Virus record (IMG/VR): IMGVR_UViG_3300043466_001759
Coordinates: 1-64,000 of that record
DNA length: 64,000 nucleotides
Source of the DNA: a virus
Reading direction: 5' to 3' (one strand)
The notes beneath the pieces were generated by a model. The model did not search any database and had not been told where the DNA came from. It worked only from the letters and a program-made list of their open reading frames with translations. Each line of letters opens with the position of its first letter. Position 1 is the stretch's first letter. Shown piece by piece: positions 3,756 to 59,227 of this stretch. A program made the translations under genes and the position numbers.

Positions 3756-3784
3756 TTGACACCGTATCGGCATGTCGATAGGAT
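3756..3784 (+). promoter_or_regulatory. Sigma70-type promoter for the + strand early region
   Basis: TTGACA-17 nt-TAGGAT with an A-rich upstream element. Confidence 0.7.
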
Positions 3785-3837
3785 TACGCATCTCACCACG
3801 TCGGTGAGACGGTGACACTCACTTGGAGATGAGACAG

Positions 3838-4278
3838 ATGAAGGGTTTTTGGTACAACGTGACGTTCGTTCGGGGCTCCTCCCGCAGGTCTTACGCGGTC
3901 TCGGCCGCCTGCATCGGTAATGCCAAGGCTGCTGCATGGTGCCGTCTCGAGGATACTGAGGGCACTCGCGAAGGGTGGTCACTCGTGATGGTTTCTGAAT
4001 TCAACAGAGGTGAGACCAGCTTCGCTAAGGCAGGAACGCTGGTTGCATGCATTAAAGATGGCGCAAAGCTGTCTGGCAAAGTTATCAGCAATGATAGCGG
4101 CAATCTTCTGATCCAATGGCGAGACTTTCCCCATCCGATTTCGTACACCCCGTTTCAAATCATGGACATGGGGATCACGACTGGCGAGCACACAAACACG
4201 CCGGTTCAAAAAAAGTTCGAGCCAAGTGAGCAAAGCGACTGGTCGTATCGTCGAGCTGAGGCTGGATACGGCCAGTAG
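3838..4278 (+). CDS. Hypothetical protein
   Basis: ORF 3823..4278; GGAG before ATG 3838. Confidence 0.65.
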   Translation: MKGFWYNVTFVRGSSRRSYAVSAACIGNAKAAAWCRLEDTEGTREGWSLVMVSEFNRGETSFAKAGTLVACIKDGAKLSGKVISNDSGNLLIQWRDFPHPISYTPFQIMDMGITTGEHTNTPVQKKFEPSEQSDWSYRRAEAGYGQ

Positions 4279-4332
4279 GCTCGGTGGGGTTAGGCCGAGT
4301 GCGGCGAGGGAATTTTTCTCCCTCGCGTCCCC
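4279..4332 (+). ncRNA. Structured RNA motif copy 1 (putative pseudoknot)
   Basis: gctcgg-t-GGGGTTAGG-ccgagt-GCG-hairpin-GTCCCC; three copies with covariation. Confidence 0.65.
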
Positions 4333-4382
4333 AGCTGACATCGAGTCAGCACAATCATTCAAACGCAAAGGGAATTTTGCAA

Positions 4383-4766
4383 ATGTTAACTAACTTTACA
4401 TCAGCTATCGAAGCTGCAGCAAACGGCCGAAAACGGCTCCAGAAGGCTGGCGAGACTCGTCAGGCGTATTTGTCTCGAGCTCGACGTGCGTGCCGTACAG
4501 TGTTCTATAAACTGGCTGCAGATTGCGAATACAAGCGATGCCACACTAGCTTCCTGGTTCGCGACACTCTACTGGTCGTTGAACAATGGTTTCCAGATCT
4601 CGGGACTTTTGGTGTTGAATACATCCCAGCTGGCCGAGGCGCAAGATCTCCCGAGGTGACGTACCTCAACACTGGCGACACCTACGAGCTAACGATTCTC
4701 TACATTCGAGGACGATTCAGAGTGGGCTGCTGGGGCGATATCGTCGAACGTGGCAACTACAACTAA
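4383..4766 (+). CDS. Hypothetical phage protein
   Basis: C-terminal YLNTGDTYELT...WGDIVE motif; start refined from 4284. Confidence 0.7.
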   Translation: MLTNFTSAIEAAANGRKRLQKAGETRQAYLSRARRACRTVFYKLAADCEYKRCHTSFLVRDTLLVVEQWFPDLGTFGVEYIPAGRGARSPEVTYLNTGDTYELTILYIRGRFRVGCWGDIVERGNYN

Positions 4767-4789
4767 CACGCGACACAGGGGATTCAGAG

Positions 4790-5614
4790 ATGTTTGATAG
4801 CAACGGGTTTGAAATTAAATCTTGCGGTCGATGTGGCGGATCAGGCAGGCACTCGTACTGCGAGAGATACGGTGATCGATGCTTCGAATGTGGCGGAAAA
4901 GGAAACGTTTTCACTAAGCGAGGCGCTGAGGCTCACCGGTTCTTTTCGGATCTTTTCGAGGTTCCTATCGAGACGATCAAAGTAGGTGATTGGGTAAAGC
5001 TTACTGGCTACACAAAGGCGAAAGTCTTAGCAGTCAAGGAAAGCATTCAACGCGGATCATCGAATGGTGTTCCTTACGAGTCGCCGGTTGTCGTGTTGAC
5101 TATCAACACTTCCACAGGACTTCTTCACTCCTCTAACTTCAAAGGATCGACAGTCAAGAAGCTCGAGAGTGAATCGATTCATGCCGAAAGGTTGGTCGCG
5201 GCGATGGAGTATCAAGCGACGTTAACCAAGCAGGGAAAGGTCCGCAAGGTTCGAAAGCCTGTTGTGTTGCTCGACCTCGACAAGTTCCTTACTGGATACA
5301 TCGAATGTGCGCTGTGGTCATCAACCGATGATAACGATGAGCCATTGGACTTGTATGACGAAGACGACATCGATCCAACGGTGCTCGAGACAATGAGAGC
5401 GGACTGCCAAGACTTCATCAAGTCTAACGCAAAGCTGCTTAACGGACTGGACGCTGCACAATGTGGACATGACTTCTGGTTAACCCGCAACAGGCACGGC
5501 GCTGGGTTCTGGGATCGAGGCCTTGGAGATGTTGGTCAACAGCTCACTGAGGCATGTCGACCATACGGCGAATTCAACCTCTACGAAGCTGAAGGGGTGA
5601 TCCATGGCCAGTAA
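4790..5614 (+). CDS. Phage protein with N-terminal CxxCxGxG zinc finger and C-terminal GHDFWLTRNxHGAGFWDR domain
   Basis: CGRCGGSG and CFECGGKG repeats (DnaJ-like Zn finger); conserved-looking C-terminal motif. Confidence 0.75.
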   Translation: MFDSNGFEIKSCGRCGGSGRHSYCERYGDRCFECGGKGNVFTKRGAEAHRFFSDLFEVPIETIKVGDWVKLTGYTKAKVLAVKESIQRGSSNGVPYESPVVVLTINTSTGLLHSSNFKGSTVKKLESESIHAERLVAAMEYQATLTKQGKVRKVRKPVVLLDLDKFLTGYIECALWSSTDDNDEPLDLYDEDDIDPTVLETMRADCQDFIKSNAKLLNGLDAAQCGHDFWLTRNRHGAGFWDRGLGDVGQQLTEACRPYGEFNLYEAEGVIHGQ

Positions 5615-5879
5615 GATCAAACAACTCAAGGAGGCTATTCGACACCCGTACGCATGGCCCGGTGGCTACGAAATTTCGGCAGTTATGAACGATGGGGCGA
5701 GCCTGTGCATGGCTTGCTGCAAAGATAATTTTCGCAACATCGTAGACTCGACTAAGAAACAACTCCGCGATGGATGGCAACTAGAAGCAGTCGACGTCAT
5801 CTGGGAGGGTGATTGTCGATGCGAGCAATGTGGAAAGAACCTAGCAGTTTACGAGGACGATGAAGACGAACAGGCTTGA
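5604..5879 (+). CDS. Hypothetical phage protein (YAWPGGY motif, CxxC pairs)
   Basis: 91-aa ORF overlapping the previous stop. Confidence 0.75.
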   Translation: MASKIKQLKEAIRHPYAWPGGYEISAVMNDGASLCMACCKDNFRNIVDSTKKQLRDGWQLEAVDVIWEGDCRCEQCGKNLAVYEDDEDEQA

Positions 5880-5922
5880 TGGGGTTAGGTCAAGTGCGGC
5901 AGGTCGAGAGGCCTGCGTCCCC
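5874..5922 (+). ncRNA. Structured RNA motif copy 2
   Basis: gcttga-t-GGGGTTAGG-tcaagt-GCG-gcaggtc(GAGA)ggcctgc-GTCCCC. Confidence 0.65.
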
Positions 5923-5966
5923 GATGACACAATGTCAGCAACAAATACAAACAGGAGATCGAGACA

Positions 5967-6935
5967 ATGAGCACATCAACAAAAACCAACACGCTTCGGC
6001 ACTCAATCGTTGTCAGCAAGGGCAACCAGATCACGGACATCAGGATCACTCTAGACGATGACTGCAACAATGGGCACGAAGACTTCTCTATCACAGCTAA
6101 CATCAGAGAGAGAGACTCTCGGGGCATACTGAGAGATGCTGGCGGAGGATGCTGTCACGAGCATATCTTATCACTTCGACCCGAGCTCAAGCCGTTTGTT
6201 GATCTACACCTTTGCACATGGGAAGGGACACCACTTCACTGCGCTGCGAACGGATTCTACTGGCTCGCTGGATACCTGGAGCTGAGTTATGTGGAATACC
6301 ACGGAAGCAGTGGACGCGATGCCAAGACCAAGGAAGAATGCCTGCGGATCTTCAAGGATCACGTTCGATGCACCGATGAGGAGTTGCCAGCACTGCTCGA
6401 ATGCAGGTCGGCCGATGAATTGCGAATTGCCCTCGAAGACCTAGGAGTCGTCACCCGATGGAAAGAGGAAGCTGACGCTGCCATAAGACAACTCGAGACA
6501 TGGACAGGCAGTGAGTTCGAATCTGCAGCAACCCGCAAGGGATGGGCTCCAGTCACCAACGAAGAGCGAGAGATCGCCACAGCTCGCCGTGCATCTGGTT
6601 ACTACACTCCAGAGGCAATTGCAGCTCGAGATGCTGAGAGAGCAGCTGCATTGAAGGCGAAAAAGAGAGCAACGTTGATCGCCAATCACGACAGCAATGT
6701 TCGCAAGTCGAAGAGGTATTTGGAAGTGAAGCTGTTCATTCTCGACAACTTCGACAACGACGTTAATTGCATTTACTACGATCACTGTAACGAGGTGACA
6801 GTAAACTGGACGAGCACCGAAAAGCTGGTAACCAAAGAAGAGTTCGACAACATGGTCGAGGTATTCAAGAACTTCAGGACAGAAAGCCTCCCAGAAGGCG
6901 TGAAGCTCGAATGGCAAGAAAAACCAAAGTATTAG
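5967..6935 (+). CDS. Hypothetical phage protein
   Basis: 322 aa, AGGAG RBS, DDCNNGH and GGCCHE motifs. Confidence 0.8.
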   Translation: MSTSTKTNTLRHSIVVSKGNQITDIRITLDDDCNNGHEDFSITANIRERDSRGILRDAGGGCCHEHILSLRPELKPFVDLHLCTWEGTPLHCAANGFYWLAGYLELSYVEYHGSSGRDAKTKEECLRIFKDHVRCTDEELPALLECRSADELRIALEDLGVVTRWKEEADAAIRQLETWTGSEFESAATRKGWAPVTNEEREIATARRASGYYTPEAIAARDAERAAALKAKKRATLIANHDSNVRKSKRYLEVKLFILDNFDNDVNCIYYDHCNEVTVNWTSTEKLVTKEEFDNMVEVFKNFRTESLPEGVKLEWQEKPKY

Positions 6936-6980
6936 ACTCGGAGGGGTTAGGCCGAGTGCGGCACCTTCGGGTGCGTCCCC
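6936..6980 (+). ncRNA. Structured RNA motif copy 3
   Basis: actcgg-a-GGGGTTAGG-ccgagt-GCG-gcacc(TTCG)ggtgc-GTCCCC. Confidence 0.65.
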
Positions 6981-7024
6981 AACTGACATCGAGTCAGTTA
7001 TCACGTTGCTATGGAACCAAGCGA

Positions 7025-7339
7025 ATGAGCACAACGACAGCAAACAATCACAGCTTCAAGGCCGGAGATATCCTTGTGTCATCATGGGGGTATGGCCAGA
7101 CCAACATTGACTACTACGAAGTGATCAAGGTAACGGCGTCAACCATTAGCATTCGCGAGCTCGAGTGCGACATAACACCAAATGGATTCATGTGCGGTGA
7201 TTCTGCTCCAAGGCTAGGCCAATACAGATCTGATGAGATAAAGACTAAGCGACCAAAGAACGGTTGCGTGAGAATCTCGTCTTATGCATCTGCATGCCTA
7301 TGGAACGGTCAGCCGAAGTACTGCTCGTGGTATGCTTAA
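7025..7339 (+). CDS. Hypothetical phage protein (GDILxSSWGYxQTN motif)
   Basis: Start refined from 6911 to MSTTTAN. Confidence 0.7.
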   Translation: MSTTTANNHSFKAGDILVSSWGYGQTNIDYYEVIKVTASTISIRELECDITPNGFMCGDSAPRLGQYRSDEIKTKRPKNGCVRISSYASACLWNGQPKYCSWYA

Positions 7340-10004: not shown

Positions 10005-10007
10005 TCC

Positions 10008-10447
10008 GGCAGGGTTAGGCTTTGCGCGTCGCGGCTCGTTGCGGCGTTGTGCGGCAAGGCAAGACAAGGTTTCATGCATCAGCTGAGAAGTCGGTGCATG
10101 GATTGACCTCGGCACGTCTCGTTGGTGCAGGGCAGGGCCCGGCGTGGCGCGGCTAGGCAAGGCAAGGCAAAGTTTCACATCTGAGGCGAATAGGCTCAGG
10201 TGTGAATTGACCGTGGCACGGCGAGGCATGTTATGACTCGGCGCGGCAAGGCAAGGCGAGGTTTCCTATCTGGGGCGAATAGGCCTAGGTAGGGATTGAT
10301 TAGGGTTTGGCTGGTCGGATCACGACAGGTCGGGGCTCGGCTAGGTAAAGCAAGGCAAGGTTTCACAGCTGGAGCGAACAGGTCCAGCTGTGGATTGGAC
10401 TCGGCATAGTAGGCCGAGGCGGGGCGTGGTAAAGCAAGGCAAGGACT
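10008..10447 (+). ncRNA. Pentamer-periodic guide-like array block B (units 3-7)
   Basis: Five phased 5-mer tracts (10008-10072, 10101-10175, 10205-10264, 10294-10363, 10393-10447) separated by hairpins at 10073-10100, 10176-10204, 10265-10293 and 10364-10392. Confidence 0.88.
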
Positions 10448-13418: not shown

Positions 13419-13567
13419 GATGAAATTCCTTCTGAGGGCTGTACCCTATAAGTTTTCCGCACACGCGACAAGTCGTTCTGATCCATCCATGCCGCTTGTG
13501 ATCCGGTCGATCAACCCACAAAGATCGATCGATGGAACACTGGCTTTGCTGACACACAGTCAGTTGA

Positions 13568-21228: not shown

Positions 21229-21261
21229 ACCTTTCTTTGAAAAACACTGACACTGAGTCAG

Positions 21262-21625: not shown

Positions 21626-21651
21626 ATCAACCTCCTGAAAACAAAAACCAG

Positions 21652-21726
21652 TGGACGGACAGGACTCGAACCTGCCTCTGCGACATCGCCCAACAGTCGC
21701 CGCTAAACCATCTCAGCTACTCGTCC
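21652..21726 (-). tRNA. Degenerate tRNA / tRNA-like element with an 11-nt anticodon loop
   Basis: GGACGAG TA GCTG-AGATGGTT-TAGC G GCGAC-TGTTGGGCGAT-GTCGC AGAG GCAGG-TTCGAGT-CCTGT CCGTCC A. Confidence 0.65.
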
Positions 21727-21733
21727 GCTTGTC

Positions 21734-37400: not shown

Positions 37401-40088
37401 GCCACGAATCTGAGCTGTCCTCTCCTTGTCCTCGACAAAACTGCCGTTCTGCATCTTTCCGACACGAACGACTGGAGCCCCTCCACGAGGATGCCAAGCA
37501 TTGTCCAATACGGACTTGTTGACTCCCCTTCCTCCACTCCAGTCTCTTACTCTCGCTGAGTAGTTCTTCCATATCTTGGAACCGAGGCCTTCACCGCCAG
37601 TTGCTCGCCCTGTACTGTCGACCAGCCCAGCACCTTCTGACGTTGTCCATGGATGAGACATGCCGCTAATCATCACGGTAGTGTCGCCATCCTCAAACCC
37701 CATGCCTCGCATCTCTTTTTCCAAGCTCGAGACGCCCTCAATGGTTCTCTTTTCACCAATCAAGTTACTCTTAGATCTTTCGTACTGGTCTTTATACCGA
37801 GCGTCACTCTTTCTTACTGGACCACCCTCAGAGCCTTTAAACAACTCTTGACGTTTCGACTCTATCTCATCTTCTGAGAGCTGATAGGAGTCTGCCGCAG
37901 GAACATCCTTTGCATCGGACGACTTCGCAGCCGACTCAGCCGGAACAGAGGCCTTCTGACTTGGGAACGCCGTTCTTGCCTGTTCCCATTGCTCTCGCCT
38001 TTGATTCTCGTCTGGTGCTTGCGATGCATTGGAGTCATCACCAAAGATGATCTCTGACCACTGCTCGGGACTAGGTGCACTTTCTAAGCCAGCAAATTTC
38101 CGACGTATCTTGTCATACTCTTGCTTGTCTGATGGGTTATCAAACACTGGCTCTTCCTGCTTAGCTACTGACGTTGCGTCAGCTGGCTTTGATCCTGTGC
38201 CTTCACTCGAAGATCGCTGTAGCTCCTCTCCTCCGTCCTTTACTTTCTGATACACATTCCTGGCTGCATCCATACTTGAATGCTCGCTGGAATAGATCTG
38301 CTTACCACTCCCAGTTTCAACAGAACGAACTACCCACTTCTTTCCGTCTTCAGACTCAAAGAGCTCGTGGCGAACACCATTGTCAAGTTCTGTGATTTCA
38401 TCAAGCTTCTTTGCTGGCTTTCCGGCGATCGACACCTTCTCGTCACCGCCGACTGCATCACTTAGCGGCTGGCTTACTGGCTGACCGGTAGGAACAGGCC
38501 CTACTTGGCTTTCGGCCTGGGCTGCTTCTTCTGCGACTGGCTGGACTTCTTGCCTGCCTTGGGCTTGGATTTCCCCGCCTTGAGGCTCGCTTTGGGGTCG
38601 TACGGCATTCTGTTCTCCTTGGTCGACTTCTGGTGGACCAGCAGGCAATGACTGATCAGACGAAGCCTGAGAGGCCCTGTCATTTATGAGTTTCTGTCCT
38701 GCCTCCCACTGCTCTCTCCGGACATTTGCATTGGGAACTGTCTTGTCATCACGAAGACCGGGATCACCCAGTACGATCTTAGCCCACTCGCTACGGCTTG
38801 GGGGCTCTTTAAGGCTTCCTATCTGAATCGATATGTCATCTATTTTTTGTTGGTCTTCAGGACTTACCTCATCAGCCGATTGTTTTGCAACAACCTCTGC
38901 GTCGTTTCCAGTATTGACGTCACCAGTCGGAGCAGGCGACTGGCCGACTGGCGCGATTGCGACCCCTTCAGCAGGCAGCTGATCAACCACTTGATCGTCA
39001 GGAACCTTCCTTCCTGTTCTTTTACCGACAGCGGCAGATAATCCACTTTGTGCACCACTGATTACGCCACCACCTAAAGCACCCGCAGCCGACGCTTCGA
39101 ACCATTTCATCCAGGTTTCTCGATCCGTAATCTTGTGATTCGGATCAACTATCTCTGCATTTATGCTCTGCAGCATCTCCTGGAAGCCCTCCTGGACGCC
39201 TTCCGAGCCAGAGCTCTTTACAGCGTCCCACAGATAAGCAGCTGCCGCTTTATTCCCAGATTGCTTTGCTATTTCGCCAGCGCCTATCTTGTTGATGAAT
39301 TTCATCAAAGACGGGGTCGCTCCAAATGCAACTTCGGATGCTCCAGATACTTGACCTAACAACAGTGCTGTAAAAGGACTGTCGATACCCTTCTCTCTTT
39401 GTTCGCCATACATGCCACCGCCTTCATGTAAAGCTGTGACCTGCTGGGAGGCGACTGCACCGCCAGCCTTTTTAGCTAAAGAATTGTAAACAAGCTTCTT
39501 GGCGGATTCCTCTGCAACTTCTTTTGTAGCTCCTCTGATTACATACTCTTTAGCTATGTCCGCGATCTTTTTCTTAATTGCTGTTTTTCCAAGAAAGCCA
39601 GTGATAGCACCGACAGGAACAGTAGCAACGTCAGCAGGATCAGGACCAGGAACCAACATAGAACCCGCTGCTGCACCAACGATCCCAGTACCAACAGATT
39701 CTGCTATAGATGGAGCTAACTCCCCTAGAGTACCAGCTGCCCATGTTGCCATGTTTCCAGGGCCTGCCATAGCACCTGTCTTTTCATCAGTAGAAAAGAA
39801 GTCTGTGACTGTCTTTGGGTTTTCAGACGCCTGCTCCATTTCCTTCTGATATTTTTTGAAACGTTCTCTAGCTGCAGATTCATTGCCCATTGCGGAGTGG
39901 TACGCGGCAATACCACCGTGATAGGTAGCCTGCGTCTGGTCGATGCCTCGCAGCAAACCTCGATACGCTTCGCTTCTGTTTTTTAAGTTGTCTTGAGTTC
40001 TTACCGCAGACTCTCTCTTGATCCTCATCAAAGAAAGTTGGTCAGCGAACTCTCCGTCGTCCATAACATCAACTTCAGGTGTTGCCAT
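25500..40088 (-). CDS. Giant polyvalent internal virion (ejection) protein, 4862 aa
   Basis: Hydrophobic Gly/Ala N-terminus; HEAFH zincin motif; TMDLWWSR; HDAFGH; GNAT-like block; two ART-like FKKWFGD...YHGT...GYDGV...KSATxNxGxFD domains. Confidence 0.9.
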   Translation of the reverse strand: MATPEVDVMDDGEFADQLSLMRIKRESAVRTQDNLKNRSEAYRGLLRGIDQTQATYHGGIAAYHSAMGNESAARERFKKYQKEMEQASENPKTVTDFFSTDEKTGAMAGPGNMATWAAGTLGELAPSIAESVGTGIVGAAAGSMLVPGPDPADVATVPVGAITGFLGKTAIKKKIADIAKEYVIRGATKEVAEESAKKLVYNSLAKKAGGAVASQQVTALHEGGGMYGEQREKGIDSPFTALLLGQVSGASEVAFGATPSLMKFINKIGAGEIAKQSGNKAAAAYLWDAVKSSGSEGVQEGFQEMLQSINAEIVDPNHKITDRETWMKWFEASAAGALGGGVISGAQSGLSAAVGKRTGRKVPDDQVVDQLPAEGVAIAPVGQSPAPTGDVNTGNDAEVVAKQSADEVSPEDQQKIDDISIQIGSLKEPPSRSEWAKIVLGDPGLRDDKTVPNANVRREQWEAGQKLINDRASQASSDQSLPAGPPEVDQGEQNAVRPQSEPQGGEIQAQGRQEVQPVAEEAAQAESQVGPVPTGQPVSQPLSDAVGGDEKVSIAGKPAKKLDEITELDNGVRHELFESEDGKKWVVRSVETGSGKQIYSSEHSSMDAARNVYQKVKDGGEELQRSSSEGTGSKPADATSVAKQEEPVFDNPSDKQEYDKIRRKFAGLESAPSPEQWSEIIFGDDSNASQAPDENQRREQWEQARTAFPSQKASVPAESAAKSSDAKDVPAADSYQLSEDEIESKRQELFKGSEGGPVRKSDARYKDQYERSKSNLIGEKRTIEGVSSLEKEMRGMGFEDGDTTVMISGMSHPWTTSEGAGLVDSTGRATGGEGLGSKIWKNYSARVRDWSGGRGVNKSVLDNAWHPRGGAPVVRVGKMQNGSFVEDKERTAQIRGVLEEALNFSQAKPSDKKSTDTTSAPKESKKSMGRENKLNAKSSESVPPPSKTGSTPPLLPKSATPPPLKQRTSSGDKSPAQVEAKSSDAVSVEPVRNQEDKDAPQTKRGGDPSEVQTEERREGQTNAQTKAEGQVSPEKPEGQATAGTPSSDSSSSKQKEAPKPPARPKRDSNEASKPKEESRKKAVAEKYLNELSPGQREAIAKSLTESLGTEVTVNDLVNNPGLVDAIVAISPARKSKTKPKKAASSRNRQAAKEDVPKQLGNVTLVSSEELSDDEKQQVKILDKMGVSMRFVNGRDLSLPGLFRPSTMTIWINRNYVTNMNRERGENSKWMTWGLFAHEAFHAMKVGNPEAWNQLYNWVSKHESSKEQDGLKKAGEDYIGDFDRELLSSVRADIKRSGKAVDVDKDVSGQDLLKAALKAGLKYDIFNKDGSLKEKGDLSQKTKDLSDFINEFNSNEDIRQEESLSRYLEDRAGDFDFWNELGNSKPGLLAKIGRWLRKALRFAEPDTLAGQVRLAIESAMESNGISPSSGGRASPARSSENQDSEASRVAEIRESARSATPDEHDALIAIANKHSKRDFVKSDITPSRIKNLKSNGLVVGSKLTPEGLDRLRSWDKKRKQAIAREAKLAGVDPDMAVYGLRVEKNKPWLLTEDIISNGIDTSLIPQDLEARSDSQKNNLKRTKWDVAQWLQSLYKKASGHSLSPNSKHSKSAKARMANQLAKEALHALKMDWAEGAIGWYNEKVTGALDHMADIFPEIVAPGKHQMMFKAALAISSDGQDVLPNFRMAVEIYERWKKTGTLSGWGHRSGVESSLDTMDKLVKKFGWERVEAFLATPLTAAQLSKHGFTVEDGIDPSISISKESFKVGGELVTARVYGSMIFGAKIGSFYNNLNYRFDTITMDLWWSRTIGRLRGKLESVNVENAQKSIDNGLRKNLSDKYLKKFGMSREDVARNDRAALRYARMLKSHNASVFTSTAISSYVSAIKKADELGSIENGSIQQFAPVDPSKLNANEKKFYGQLSEKIGNSKVAGKVSSESIAGMARDAIARRTEVNTTEFKAAKNVVVNAYGLYEIAKSGKDREVQREVAELAIKQVKEVIGKDITKADFQALMWYYEKELWGKLGLSKEIEKLDYEQAAKKVSQEHRASKRDGRRESISSGQRVSPEATGRAQSTVQSGEDAGSGRELDGGEYAGSGADGTRAGVGRQRPESAGDGRGRKDLRKNSPLAGSPSVPGINGPDPEVVAVAERYAKENGIDLKRQAEYVQVDPERAKRIADAYEQMAHAPQDPKVKAAYKELIRQTTAQYKALEDAGYKFWFMDLNVPSNAEYASSPYNALRDLRQNKQMGVFPTSDGFGTSDLDVNDNPLLEDTGIKWPSGGLDGQMKPVTANDLFRAVHDAFGHSLEGAGFRARGEENAWQAHVRLFTGDAVGAITSETRGQNSWLNYGPHGDKNRTAKVEDTTFADQKTGLMPEWTWTEGRAADYSETTDRESTDGTTEKDGSEDRSRKTRERAAVAKRSGREATATIRSRVGSNGRAWSRSEESRTLGGYGVVATYEADAAEWADVGVAAPSFVELQKSEKSASQFTAAINAARESQGKLGASVYVYPEQDYRDMRLFLTEDGKAGFALKDSGEAGVVDIVSVFNTANNAHRGVSYSMMRLAVEEGGNTLDAFDTFLPVLYSANGFRVISRAKWSDEFAPSGWSKEEYSDFNNGEPDVVFMAYDPQRTDIYRHNSGEGKAFDDIDEAVRSQRSAAIENATALDSRDLNSGLRYAIARPELAKELDKGETVTLYRAMTMIDGNLYPPMSSKINDGKKLSLRKPEPVGKWMVAEERPDLVPKTGKYAGKFPLKKPKGTTWAAYAPYFHASPIPLNDQFTASWYNDGVKRPKMVIVEVEVPASEMTSGYQAEGSSKKVGSNKWTAGVVASKLPGGREVVLSRYLRIKRIVPDAEVAKKIADIVNPSRLSIPENTVTPQLRAELEKNGVRISPKGTKGESIRYSPSRQVDSPAFKKWFGDWENDPENSSKIVWNGQPLSLYHGTKRDFNVFEGKAKTSTDGGYYGKGYYFTTDSEGAGRYAGRGDGSRILEVYVDIKNPAIINDTYRDNTADALSMSGGKLDYVDAKVAKVFNDVYDGDPTSHLDPEKSIEITKRLKEAGYDGVIVNQSDLPFAEVVAFDSSQIKSATGNRGTFDKFDPDIRYSPSRQDEMFAKLMKAMEERGLAKPGQSSLPETTGTKYARTEGQRKSVGDSPREWFGPRKVKDRQKKAIAELAANPGRPYEIISEMNAKPRPLTDMEDAILNARIRELKNEGDISGSDRKEWLDLNRTVQRGHSEWGYAGHAAQAELASDFSVEGLTRQHTSHVEADPSPEQIAKYAEMAERIDKLEAETAALAEKLAKEAIARKKAEAASVPKTDPPREKIGTKRATLMKKVADGFAAFQNAWGGGSSGRAAVSRSAITNVNGFGFGTDTLPDPSTVSRDEWLRAYMPLIMKAIPESKLSDEDIAVLGTVFGDENPFKADSKLMRMFSKWTVQSDLQERNWAEGVQALFRDRSRGTRMMLEQIASESGVEFDEDRFSDPSDYKALANSFVKYLPKYVSSNPDIGSEVTNLLDASKVILDPLEYAIKAWEDAQGGAGGSQIDTAAFKKWFGDSKVVDEDGNPLVVYHGTNEKFSVFESGRTSQRSVMLSSFDVETSGFFFSPSEDDARQYGKNVLPVYLSVQNRLMDPKVIGISSRSSEEVKAASAKAFEDAEYILEPMIYEEGGKRWIDTGGGVSNTEVDSDGDWINEIFIDGMIDWHALDNPKVVERMKERGYDGVKVYEENDGSGESWFVVESSQVKSATSNTGDFDKTNPDIRYSPSRQGTDIKSAADSIVNALREMGVSSVLELESQVKANMPNVTLEQMSVIKDAWAESNSKKKVESPIGDDPEPSAIGARAKELMTLAIEAGYGATNETWREVVDVVHAQLSIEVPGISEYDTMQAMSDYGSWRPLNKEEIAVKTRAIRGKTRQSLKIEDTIKAIAQSEEWLKNGVSPEEVARRLRDQNLLPKSTGREQPTPDSIERDLIAEFNKLKKELPVSTESREGQLKSALSTAKTAGKNRLEMLSKDIEALEEAIESRTVLARSVNDRTPLKPDAELASIRSQLEAKRKQRDDLKTEYEKIFPRSKKQRMLSAEQQTQRALKAIEKLKEKLQQVKDGKEVDSTKKPSLVAAEVQSQLKMWQDRLRAARQAAAEAEQGRYDDDGGAIPAQGGRKPMTEEQRLAMAERMLQSQIDDIKADTKSLTDGTWAPAVKGKVPTSSVLESLRAQLADLRKVRDEARKASPVYQAREEAKYWERYRKGQERRLAFWEKRRDEAKSGILPVPRNKRTITEEDILDKNLEIEKIKYEAMYEIEKAKRATWNAGQWMQYGLLEATSLIPKTLMLGMELSFFLRQGFFYSRSHPVRAFMAAVEAIPAVWSQRLALASVESLESRPNAKEYLQAEVEFTKKDGPRAQLEEMYQSAVIRWLENTKTPWLLPFRAWVGAYGAFERGNRTFANIMKADLYDIQKRDTLAAREFFGTNMEWTDSDIKEAGRITNIFSGRGTGLRGGSPWLDFFFLARRWTWSRIQADFILPLQLATPSWIGQWNADRGMRVSLAKLYIQTLMGHATKMAMGYFAYSLLAGDDEEKEPTIEWDPRSSDAWVMKVGETRFKDDGGLMPAVVLASRLLTGTIKTSSGEIKSIYGEDVQYGGKTGADFLINFARYKLGTGPASILEWVSGKDAVGRNIAKEGDPLAVPKHIIGSRLTPLTWKEIAAAEKELGVVSGTLASLEAFFGVSVSTYGPRTEYSGASDEEKKELFDKDLRGMKWDDKDLAYSDSLSGSQKKQARDAQQKKKQSLVYAASANPSRKNYKSDQAYKDAVTSRDEYMKTLKKSGISMTEARRLLIEHWEDNYGSAKETKKGVVVYKEGLSLRLRQLRKVFTN

Positions 40089-59195: not shown

Positions 59196-59227
59196 AGGCT
59201 TTTAAGTTACTGACTCTATGTCAGTAA

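What the first reader, a model, noticed from the sequence alone, without database searches (positions are those of the whole stretch)
4279..6997. Three copies of an unrecognised pseudoknotted RNA motif at gene junctions
Seen: at 4279-4332, 5874-5922 and 6936-6980, each at or just after a stop codon, the pattern is P1(6 bp)-N-GGGGTTAGG-P1'-GCG-[variable hairpin]-GTCCCC. P1 covaries (gctcgg/ccgagt, gcttga/tcaagt, actcgg/ccgagt). The variable hairpin changes length and has GAGA or UUCG tetraloops in two copies. The loop GGGG can pair with the terminal CCCC to form a pseudoknot. Each copy is followed within 3 nt by the (C/A)TGAC-N5-GTCAG palindrome. I cannot match it to hammerhead, HDV, twister, pistol or riboswitch consensuses from memory. 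Inference: a candidate new self-cleaving ribozyme, riboswitch or mRNA-processing element in early transcripts.
Basis: partly seen in the sequence, partly recalled or inferred. Interest (0 to 1): 0.72.

Follow-up and report, generated by a model that had tools for sequence, protein, structure and literature searches.

The report
Pistol-type ribozymes lacking stem P1
Three short RNA knots between the first genes of a lake phage carry the catalytic core of the known self-cutting "pistol" ribozyme but lack one of its standard stems, so they are probably a stripped-down natural variant that cuts a long early message at gene boundaries.

Summary
Three copies lie exactly where stated (4279-4332, 5874-5922, 6936-6980, + strand), and they are the only copies in the 72,858-bp phage record.

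The motif is a likely self-cleaving ribozyme, but it is not unrecognisable. Rfam's Pistol model (RF02679) is the only family that hits it, below threshold (29.1 and 22.0 bits against 34.5).

The parts map one to one onto pistol:
- GGGG/CCCC is P2;
- UUAGG and GCG are the catalytic loop;
- the variable hairpin is P3;
- GU before CCCC is the cleavage junction.

The canonical P1 hairpin and the A-rich linker are missing. A single nucleotide joins the pseudoknot strand to P2.

I found 43 distinct copies in uncultured phage contigs. All three helices covary; P2 occurs in seven forms among these and an eighth, a full strand swap, in a further copy.

Copies sit between a stop codon and the next ribosome site. 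In relatives they share these gene boundaries with Rfam-scored twister and hammerhead ribozymes.

Cleavage itself is untested, and no RNA data exist. The adjoining palindrome is a separate, genome-wide DNA motif.

I class this as a new variant of a known kind.

The parts
4279..4332 (+). Ribozyme copy 1. PK 5' strand 4279-4284; spacer 4285; P2 5' strand GGGG 4286-4289; loop UUAGG 4290-4294; PK 3' strand 4295-4300; GCG 4301-4303; P3 hairpin 4304-4326; junction GU 4327-4328; P2 3' strand CCCC 4329-4332.
   Evidence: Sequence. Rfam Pistol 29.1 bits at 4261-4332. Model R1 65.8 bits. Begins right after the TAG of ORF 3823-4278.
5874..5922 (+). Ribozyme copy 2. PK 5874-5879 with 5890-5895; GGGG 5881-5884; UUAGG 5885-5889; GCG 5896-5898; P3 5899-5916 (GAGA loop, one G-U pair); GU 5917-5918; CCCC 5919-5922.
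   Evidence: Sequence. R1 68.5 bits. The TGA stop of ORF 5604-5879 lies inside the PK 5' strand. Not reported by Rfam at E<=10.
6936..6980 (+). Ribozyme copy 3. PK 6936-6941 with 6952-6957; GGGG 6943-6946; UUAGG 6947-6951; GCG 6958-6960; P3 6961-6974 (UUCG loop); GU 6975-6976; CCCC 6977-6980.
   Evidence: Sequence. Rfam Pistol 22.0 bits, model positions 23-68 only. R1 68.3 bits. Follows the TAG of ORF 5967-6935.
4327..4328 (+). Predicted cleavage site of copy 1, between G4327 and U4328. The equivalent sites are G5917/U5918 and G6975/U6976.
   Evidence: Inferred from alignment to the GU junction of the Pistol model and from the published cleavage site at the GU junction (PMC4604425, text read). 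Not tested.
4335..4349 (.). Palindrome CTGAC-N5-GTCAG after copy 1. Sister sites lie at 5924-5938 (ATGAC variant) and 6983-6997.
   Evidence: It belongs to a dispersed family of 21 sites in the record, so it is not specific to the ribozyme.
3823..4278 (+). First ORF of the rightward gene block (151 aa, no family match). Its stop abuts copy 1.
   Evidence: No Pfam or PHROG match.
4383..5879 (+). Three ORFs between copies 1 and 2: 4383-4766, 4790-5614 and 5604-5879.
   Evidence: PHROG matches of unknown function, plus a small family labelled DNA ligase for 5604-5879.
5967..6935 (+). Single ORF (322 aa) between copies 2 and 3. AGGAG lies 6 nt before its ATG.
   Evidence: phrog_17696, unknown function.
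7025..7339 (+). ORF downstream of copy 3.
   Evidence: phrog_37844, unknown function.
3756..3784 (+). Best sigma-70-like promoter match (TTGACA-17-TAGGAT, 10 of 12), just upstream of the first ORF. Possible start of the transcript that carries the three copies.
   Evidence: This is a consensus match only: the scan found fewer promoter-like sites than shuffles give.

Best explanation
Each copy is a compact (45-54 nt) self-cleaving ribozyme of the pistol type that has lost the P1 hairpin and the A-rich P1-P2 linker.

Proposed fold. During transcription the first 6-nt strand pairs with its complement, giving the pistol pseudoknot helix. P3 then forms. The terminal CCCC pairs with the looped-out GGGG to give P2. 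This places the UUAGG and GCG nucleotides around the GU junction.

Proposed chemistry. The 2'-OH of the junction G attacks its 3' phosphate and the RNA breaks between G and U: 4327/4328, 5917/5918 and 6975/6976.

Proposed products. The upstream message keeps almost the whole ribozyme as a structured 3' end with a 2',3'-cyclic phosphate. The downstream message starts with 5'-OH-UCCCC, a short leader (here with a hairpin) and its ribosome site. The 4-bp P2 should let the products part quickly.

Net effect. One rightward, probably early, polycistronic transcript is cut into four pieces at three gene boundaries.

Status of each step:
- Shown: the fold, by covariation in all three helices.
- Shown: the identity of core nucleotides and spacing with pistol.
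- Inferred: catalysis and the cleavage site.
- Speculative: the consequence for message stability and translation.
For: (1) Rfam. Pistol is the only Rfam family that hits the copies. In the window it scores 29.1 bits (model 1-68) and 22.0 bits (model 23-68). In six related loci holding 19 copies it gives 6 Pistol hits of 22.5-32.9 bits, 5 of them to model positions 23/24-68 only. The printed alignments match P2, UUAgG, the pseudoknot strand, GCG, P3, GU and P2 in order and spacing.

(2) Catalytic residues. Published catalytic and structural residues are purine-32, G33-C41, G40 and G42, around the G-U site (review PMC6154101, passages). By position they correspond to the invariant UUARG and GCG. 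UUAGG occurs in 37 of 43 copies and UUAAG in 6.

(3) Covariation. On 41 aligned copies, 99.8% of 615 cells are paired and 12 of 15 pairs show changes on both sides. Sliding the partner by 1-3 columns gives 38-56% paired; 0 of 500 shuffles reach the observed score.

(4) P2. 42 of 43 distinct copies have 4 of 4 pairs, in 7 forms. With a search pattern that left P2 free:
- 25 distinct matches, 23 of them with a full pseudoknot helix;
- 20 of those 23 have P3 plus GU and a fully paired P2;
- P2 types: GGGG/CCCC 13, GGGA/UCCC 3, and one each of GAGG/CCUC, GUGG/CCAC, GGGU/ACCC and a complete strand swap UCCC/GGGA.

(5) RNA, not DNA. The first pseudoknot pair is G-U in 21 of 41 copies. P3 carries UUCG and GNRA loops.

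(6) Ribozyme neighbourhood. In relatives, Rfam-threshold ribozymes lie on the same strand at neighbouring spots:
- Twister-P5 about 420 nt upstream of a copy in L010, in the spacer after the preceding ORF;
- two Hammerhead_II about 830 and 1400 nt either side of the copy in L016.

(7) Position. The upstream ORF's stop lies -6 to +12 from the first base in 34 of 43 copies, against 271 of 2150 random places. An SD-like motif plus a start codon follows within 14-93 nt in 39 of 43.

(8) Copy pattern. 15 of 16 whole viral records hold 1-5 copies, clustered within a few kb on one strand.

(9) Strain variation. In a close strain seen in four lake metagenome runs, every listed difference inside copy 1 falls in P3 (4306-4324). 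None falls in the helices or core.
Against: - Two features that define published pistols are absent: the P1 hairpin whose loop forms the pseudoknot, and the A-rich linker. 0 of 43 copies can form a stem enclosing the pseudoknot strand. Upstream hairpins are no more common than at random places (13 of 43 against 774 of 2150).
- In a canonical pistol, disrupting P1 caused substantial loss of activity (PMC4604425, passage).
- No copy reaches Rfam's gathering score: window and 16 related loci. Copy 2 is not reported at E<=10 at all.
- There is no biochemical or RNA-end evidence of cleavage.
- Most copies were retrieved with patterns or a model that fix the core. Invariance of UUARG, GCG and GU is therefore partly by construction, and the pair counts for the pseudoknot helix and P3 lean towards the model.
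- One full-length family copy (L173) lacks a convincing P3 and P2.
Confidence: 0.75

Rival explanations
1. A non-catalytic structured RNA. It would be a stable H-type pseudoknot placed after stop codons that caps the 3' end of the upstream message, insulates neighbouring cistrons, or binds a phage or host protein, without cutting itself.
For: The fold is well supported, but catalysis is not shown. P1 and the linker, needed for full activity in a canonical pistol, are absent. All scores fall below the Rfam threshold. Earlier notes of this scan describe other small intergenic phage pseudoknots of unknown function (e1-5939717 and e1-5840385; unchecked).
Against: A purely structural knot has no reason to keep UUARG, GCG and a 2-nt GU junction invariant while all helices vary freely. 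These are the positions that the literature assigns to pistol catalysis. Bona fide twister and hammerhead ribozymes lie on the same strand near copies in relatives, the twister in a neighbouring gene spacer.
Confidence: 0.14
2. A ligand-sensing riboswitch or translational control pseudoknot acting on the downstream gene.
For: It has a pseudoknot architecture, as many small riboswitches do. It lies 14-93 nt upstream of the next start codon.
Against: No riboswitch family hits any copy at E<=10. The flanking genes differ from copy to copy and have no shared metabolic theme. The element does not overlap the ribosome site. There are up to 5 copies per genome at unrelated junctions.
Confidence: 0.04
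3. A DNA-level repeat (promoter, terminator, recombination or protein-binding site), or a signal for stop-codon readthrough.
For: It lies at gene boundaries, close to a dispersed DNA palindrome, and directly after stop codons.
Against: G-U pairs are frequent; on the other strand they would be C-A mismatches. Compensatory changes, RNA tetraloops and strict strandedness all point to RNA. No T-run follows the copies, and none was listed as terminator-like. Reading through the TAG at 4276-4278 meets another TAG four codons later, inside UUAGG.
Confidence: 0.03

Closest known systems
Pistol self-cleaving ribozyme (Rfam RF02679; Harris et al. 2015, PMC4604425; structures reviewed in PMC6154101 and compared in PMC11300833)
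   Same: - 6-bp pseudoknot helix.
- 4-bp P2 flanking the core.
- 5-nt UUARG loop with a purine at the position numbered 32.
- GCG after the pseudoknot strand.
- Variable P3 hairpin.
- Strictly 2-nt GU junction just before the P2 3' strand.
- Association with phage genes and with other ribozyme classes.
   Different: - No P1 hairpin. The pseudoknot 5' strand is not a hairpin loop but a linear segment right after a stop codon.
- No A-rich linker or minor-groove triplex. One nucleotide joins the pseudoknot strand to P2.
- Total length is 45-54 nt in the window.
- Scores fall below Rfam's gathering cut-off.
- Found so far mostly in uncultured phage contigs; the window's close strains come from lake and freshwater metagenomes. 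The published class is prevalent in Firmicutes and environmental DNA (PMC4604425).
Pseudoknot-containing hammerhead ribozyme (PMC11300833)
   Same: The overall helix connectivity resembles pistol: a pseudoknot of six pairs and a helix adjacent and parallel to it.
   Different: The hammerhead core loop (given in that paper as C U G A U G A) is absent here. The loop here is the 5-nt pistol type. No hammerhead family hits the window copies at E<=10. The PK hammerhead also has the stem (helix IV) and the A-rich third strand that are missing here.
Twister and hammerhead ribozymes at phage gene junctions (Rfam RF02684, RF02276)
   Same: Same strand and neighbourhood in related contigs, the twister in a stop-to-start spacer. 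Presumably the same job.
   Different: Unrelated folds and cores.
Minimal HDV-like 'theta' ribozymes of gut phages (PMC10879173; search listing and start of abstract only)
   Same: A stripped-down version of a known ribozyme class that is specific to phages.
   Different: Different class (HDV-like). Associated with viral tRNAs, not with protein-gene boundaries.

Membership tests
Pistol ribozyme (RF02679) | P1 hairpin whose loop supplies the 5' strand of the pseudoknot | tested here: not met
   The pseudoknot 5' strand is followed after 1 nt by P2. 0 of 43 copies can form 4 or more pairs enclosing it. Upstream hairpins occur in 13 of 43 copies against 774 of 2150 random places.
Pistol ribozyme (RF02679) | A-rich linker between P1 and P2 (minor-groove triple with P1) | tested here: not met
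   The linker is a single nucleotide: T 20, A 16, G 7 of 43. Rfam alignments cover model positions 23/24-68 only in 6 of 8 hits.
Pistol ribozyme (RF02679) | Six-base-pair pseudoknot between that strand and the P2-P3 junction | tested here: met
   6 of 6 pairs in all 41 aligned copies. 4 of the 6 pairs show changes on both sides, and there are 21 strand combinations. Rows were selected by a model containing this helix. In the unselected pattern set, 30 of 35 matches had 6 of 6 pairs and 5 had 3 or fewer.
Pistol ribozyme (RF02679) | P2 helix closing the core | tested here: met
   4 bp, as in the Rfam consensus. 42 of 43 copies are fully paired. 3 of 4 pairs show changes on both sides. One copy has a full strand swap. 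P2 was not a paired element of the search model.
Pistol ribozyme (RF02679) | Conserved internal-loop nucleotides (5-nt loop with purine-32 and G33; then G40, C41, G42) | tested here: met
   UUAGG in 37 and UUAAG in 6 of 43 copies, and GCG in all 43. This is partly by construction of the searches. The residue roles come from PMC6154101 passages. The numbering map is my inference from the 5+6+3 spacing.
Pistol ribozyme (RF02679) | Variable P3 hairpin followed by a junction of exactly two nucleotides (GU) that holds the cleavage site | tested here: met
   All 5 closing P3 pairs covary. GU follows P3 in 43 of 43 copies, though GT was required by the script. The junction length is strictly conserved in the class (PMC4604425).
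Pistol ribozyme (RF02679) | Score at or above Rfam's gathering cut-off (34.5 bits) | tested here: not met
   The best score is 29.1 bits in the window and 32.9 bits in relatives. There was no gathering-level hit in the window or in 16 loci.
Pistol ribozyme (RF02679) | Mg2+-dependent self-cleavage giving 2',3'-cyclic phosphate and 5'-OH ends | not testable with these tools
   No RNA run holds the sequence. Only DNA contigs could be laid.
Hammerhead ribozyme (including the pseudoknot form) | Conserved hammerhead core loop and three-way junction | tested here: not met
   No hammerhead family hit at E<=10 on 4200-7050. The core sequence is absent on reading.

The most novel reading that the evidence does not exclude
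The pistol active site works as a bare three-helix H-type pseudoknot. If so, the P1 and triple-helix 'pedestal' is dispensable in nature, and this would be the smallest natural pistol.

The first strand starts at, or overlaps, the upstream stop codon. In 7 of 43 copies the stop is the UAG/UAA inside the catalytic UUARG loop. A terminating ribosome must therefore unfold the ribozyme. Cleavage would then be gated by translation of the upstream gene. Such a ribozyme would read ribosome traffic and set the fate of the next cistron.
Probability: 0.15. Interest if true: 0.85.

Novelty: new variant of a known kind. Interest (0 to 1): 0.62.

Why it matters
Pistol has been described with three stems plus a pseudoknot, and P1 was reported to be important for activity. 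A natural, recurrent and strongly covarying form without P1 and the linker would have several consequences:
- It would redefine the minimal pistol fold.
- It would give a 45-54-nt self-cleaver for engineering.
- It would explain why standard models miss it: no copy here passes Rfam's cut-off.

The layout offers a clean system to test what self-cleaving ribozymes do for phages, which is still an open question. There are several copies per genome, always between a stop codon and the next ribosome site, alongside twister and hammerhead ribozymes in relatives.

Tried and rejected
- **N4-like hairpin promoters.** My first idea was hairpin promoters for a virion RNA polymerase, prompted by the 4862-aa ORF. 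Rejected. That ORF carries an ART-PolyVal domain and gives no RNA polymerase hit in PHROGs, Pfam or PDB sequences. The hairpins also have G-U pairs and RNA tetraloops.
- **A fourth copy at 10006-10048** (AGGGTTAGG...). It scores 7.9 bits with R1 and 9.2 bits with Pistol, and three pseudoknot pairs are broken. Not a copy.
- **Protein-guided search for relatives** with ORF 5967-6935. One locus (L028) was found, without the motif.
- **Broader DNA pattern.** Of its 119+ stretches, 71 new loci were scanned and only 3 had model hits.
- **Prokaryote genome scan.** 86 stretches were found and 80 loci scanned. Only a 9-kb contig binned with a Crocinitomicaceae MAG holds two real copies. A 35-bit hit in L198 has no P3 hairpin on reading. 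This is too thin to name a host.
- **RNA evidence.** No RNA holder is listed. The four runs laid are DNA contigs and cannot show cleavage.
- **P2 slide control** in my own script. It is uninformative, because GGGG also pairs with UCCC at offset -1. My first P3 finder mis-set five copies and was replaced.
- **Conserved upstream P1-like hairpin.** None found.
- **Literature.** Five full-text searches and one preprint check found no description of a natural pistol lacking P1. Supplementary alignments of the pistol papers were closed and not seen, and they could contain such variants.
Full report
**What is there**

The window is bases 1-64000 of a 72,858-bp virus record with direct terminal repeats, rated complete. 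Close strains occur in lake and freshwater metagenome DNA runs.

Reading 4100-7200 confirms the three copies at 4279-4332, 5874-5922 and 6936-6980 on the + strand. Each has this order:
- a 6-nt strand, one nucleotide, GGGG, TTAGG;
- the complement of the 6-nt strand, then GCG;
- a hairpin of 14-23 nt (7-nt, GAGA and UUCG loops);
- GT, then CCCC.

The upstream ORFs end at 4278 and 6935. The ORF ending at 5879 has its stop inside copy 2. The next ORFs start 44-51 nt after each copy.

A sigma-70-like match (10 of 12) at 3756-3784 precedes the first ORF of this rightward gene block. It is a consensus match only. The rest of the window is mostly leftward genes, including a 4862-aa ORF with an ART-PolyVal domain.

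**Identity**

At gathering thresholds Rfam finds nothing in the window. In E-value mode on 4200-7050, the top match is Pistol (RF02679): 29.1 bits for copy 1 and 22.0 bits for copy 3, against a cut-off of 34.5. The copy 3 match covers model positions 23-68 only.

The printed alignments map the motif as follows:
- GGGG and CCCC on pistol P2;
- UUAGG on the conserved UUAgG;
- the second 6-nt strand on the pseudoknot 3' strand;
- GCG on GCG;
- the variable hairpin on P3;
- GU on the two-nucleotide junction.

According to Harris et al. 2015, that junction holds the cleavage site and has a strictly conserved length (PMC4604425, text read). The review PMC6154101 (passages) names purine-32, the G40.(G33-C41) triple and G42 as the residues around the G-U site. 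By the 5+6+3 spacing, these are the last two letters of UUARG and the GCG. This mapping is my inference.

**What is missing**

Published pistols have a P1 hairpin whose loop is the pseudoknot 5' strand, followed by an A-rich linker. The linker lies in P1's minor groove (PMC11300833, passages). Here the pseudoknot 5' strand is linear and P2 follows after one nucleotide.
- None of 43 family copies can form a stem enclosing that strand.
- Hairpins abutting it upstream are not enriched: 13 of 43 against 774 of 2150 random places.

Harris et al. report that disrupting P1 causes substantial loss of activity in a canonical construct. This is a real departure from the class definition.

My structural inference comes from the published description: the pseudoknot is coaxial with P1 and P3, P2 is adjacent and parallel to the pseudoknot, and the linker runs along P1. 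The 3' end of the pseudoknot strand and the 5' end of P2 both lie near the P1/pseudoknot junction. A one-nucleotide closure could therefore replace P1 plus linker as one module. I could not model this.

**Family and covariation**

An exact pattern with GGGG/CCCC fixed found 23 stretches in IMG/VR. Together with the window's three, this gave 35 distinct matches. Thirty had 6 of 6 pseudoknot pairs and 5 had 3 or fewer. I built model R1 from the 30, with the pseudoknot helix and P3 as pairs and P2 unpaired.

R1 results:
- It finds only the three copies in the window with filters off; the next hit scores 7.9 bits. It finds the same three in the whole record.
- In 15 of 16 whole viral records it finds 1-5 copies, clustered within a few kb on one strand.

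A second pattern left P2 free and gave 25 distinct matches. Their fate was:
- 23 have a full pseudoknot helix;
- 20 of those have P3, GU and a fully paired P2, in six sequence types that include a complete strand swap;
- the three misses are one copy cut by a contig end, one group without P3 plus GU, and one with 3 of 4 P2 pairs.

Over all sources I counted 43 distinct copies, 42 with P2 fully paired, in seven forms.

On a 41-row alignment, the pair count gave:
- 99.8% of 615 cells paired;
- 12 of 15 pairs with changes on both sides (pseudoknot 4 of 6, P2 3 of 4, P3 5 of 5);
- slid controls at 38-56% paired;
- 0 of 500 shuffles reaching the score.

Rows left out of this alignment were four copies with long P3 (L167, L168, L170, L017:7194), the cut copy L166, the defective L173, and duplicates.

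Two caveats apply. Rows were chosen by a model that contains two of the helices. The shuffle control ignores relatedness.

G-U pairs point to RNA of this strand: 21 of 41 at the first pseudoknot pair.

**Context in relatives**

- The upstream ORF's stop lies -6 to +12 from the first base in 34 of 43 copies, against 271 of 2150 random places. In 7 copies it is the stop inside UUARG.
- An SD-like motif plus a start codon follows within 14-93 nt in 39 of 43.
- At Rfam gathering level, 16 related loci show no Pistol. They do show a Twister-P5 about 420 nt upstream of a copy in L010, and two Hammerhead_II flanking the copy in L016, all on the same strand; the twister lies in the spacer after the preceding ORF. 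This is the same neighbourhood logic by which pistol was discovered.
- In E-value mode on six loci holding 19 copies, Pistol gave 6 sub-threshold hits, 5 of them to model positions 23/24-68. No other family hit a copy.
- Prokaryote genomes almost lack the element. Of 80 loci scanned (from 86 pattern stretches), only a 9-kb contig binned with a Crocinitomicaceae MAG has two true copies.

**Strain variation**

Contigs from four lake metagenome runs carry a close strain. All listed differences inside copy 1 fall within P3 (4306-4324). Copies 2 and 3 show none, but overall divergence there is too low for that to mean much.

**The palindrome**

CTGAC-N5-GTCAG follows copies 1 and 3, and an ATGAC variant follows copy 2. 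It is a dispersed feature, not part of the ribozyme:
- 42 hits on both strands in the window against 0.87 expected;
- 21 sites in the record, with zero for the reversed control, and 10, 15, 3 and 2 sites in four related records;
- 16 of 24 core sites in the window lie inside long ORFs;
- only 20 of 43 family copies are followed by any hairpin of 5 bp or more, against 383 of 2150 controls.

I read it as a DNA-level site of unknown function. Where it falls in a leader it also gives the cleaved downstream RNA a 5' hairpin.

**Mechanism and rivals**

Most likely (0.75), these are active cis-cleaving pistol-type ribozymes. They would cut a polycistronic transcript at three boundaries. The ribozyme would stay as a structured, cyclic-phosphate-ended 3' cap on the upstream piece. 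The downstream piece would get a 5'-OH leader. The effect on stability and translation is speculation.

Rivals:
- a non-catalytic protective or insulating pseudoknot (0.14);
- a riboswitch or translational element (0.04);
- a DNA-level site or a readthrough signal (0.03).

**Novelty**

Five literature searches found no description of a natural pistol without P1.

It agrees with my reading, which I had reached from then on. It is not independent evidence.

I class this as a new variant of a known kind, with moderate to high interest pending a cleavage assay.

Noticed in passing
window, 24 sites (e.g. 462-474, 13550-13562, 21248-21260, 37128-37140, 59211-59223); also records G003, G006, G013, G015: The palindrome CTGAC-N5-GTCAG is strongly over-represented. 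There are 21 sites in the 72.9-kb record against 0 for the reversed control. It is also present in four related phage records (10, 15, 3 and 2 sites). It occurs both inside genes (six sites in the 4862-aa ORF) and between genes. It is possibly a site for a dimeric DNA-binding protein, a modification or a nick. Unexplained.
   Followed up: partly
window 25500-40088 (-): A 4862-aa ORF with an ART-PolyVal ADP-ribosyltransferase domain (residues 2929-3089). It looks like a giant 'polyvalent' protein, not an N4-type virion RNA polymerase. No PDB sequence match.
   Followed up: partly
window 4769-5456: In a close strain seen in four lake metagenome runs, this stretch (most of ORF 4790-5614) is replaced by 201 other letters. 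This looks like a gene-cassette swap between two ribozyme copies.
   Followed up: no
L010 5324-5405 (-); L016 462-536 (-) and 2815-2899 (-): A Twister-P5 and two Hammerhead_II ribozymes above Rfam cut-offs lie on the same strand as the P1-less pistol copies in related phage contigs, the twister in a neighbouring gene spacer. Different ribozyme classes thus sit close together on one strand.
   Followed up: partly
L009 (record G004), leaders after four of its five copies: Four of the five copies in this record are followed not by a palindrome but by a near-identical leader of about 25 nt ending in ACAGGAG before the ATG. The repeated unit there is ribozyme plus leader.
   Followed up: no
window 21650-21728 (-): A single tRNA-Pro (GGG anticodon) gene in the phage.
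   Followed up: no
L168 2738 onward (+): A family member with P2 strands swapped (UCCC/GGGA) and a 64-nt P3. L167 and L170 also have long P3 arms (48 and 55 nt).
   Followed up: partly
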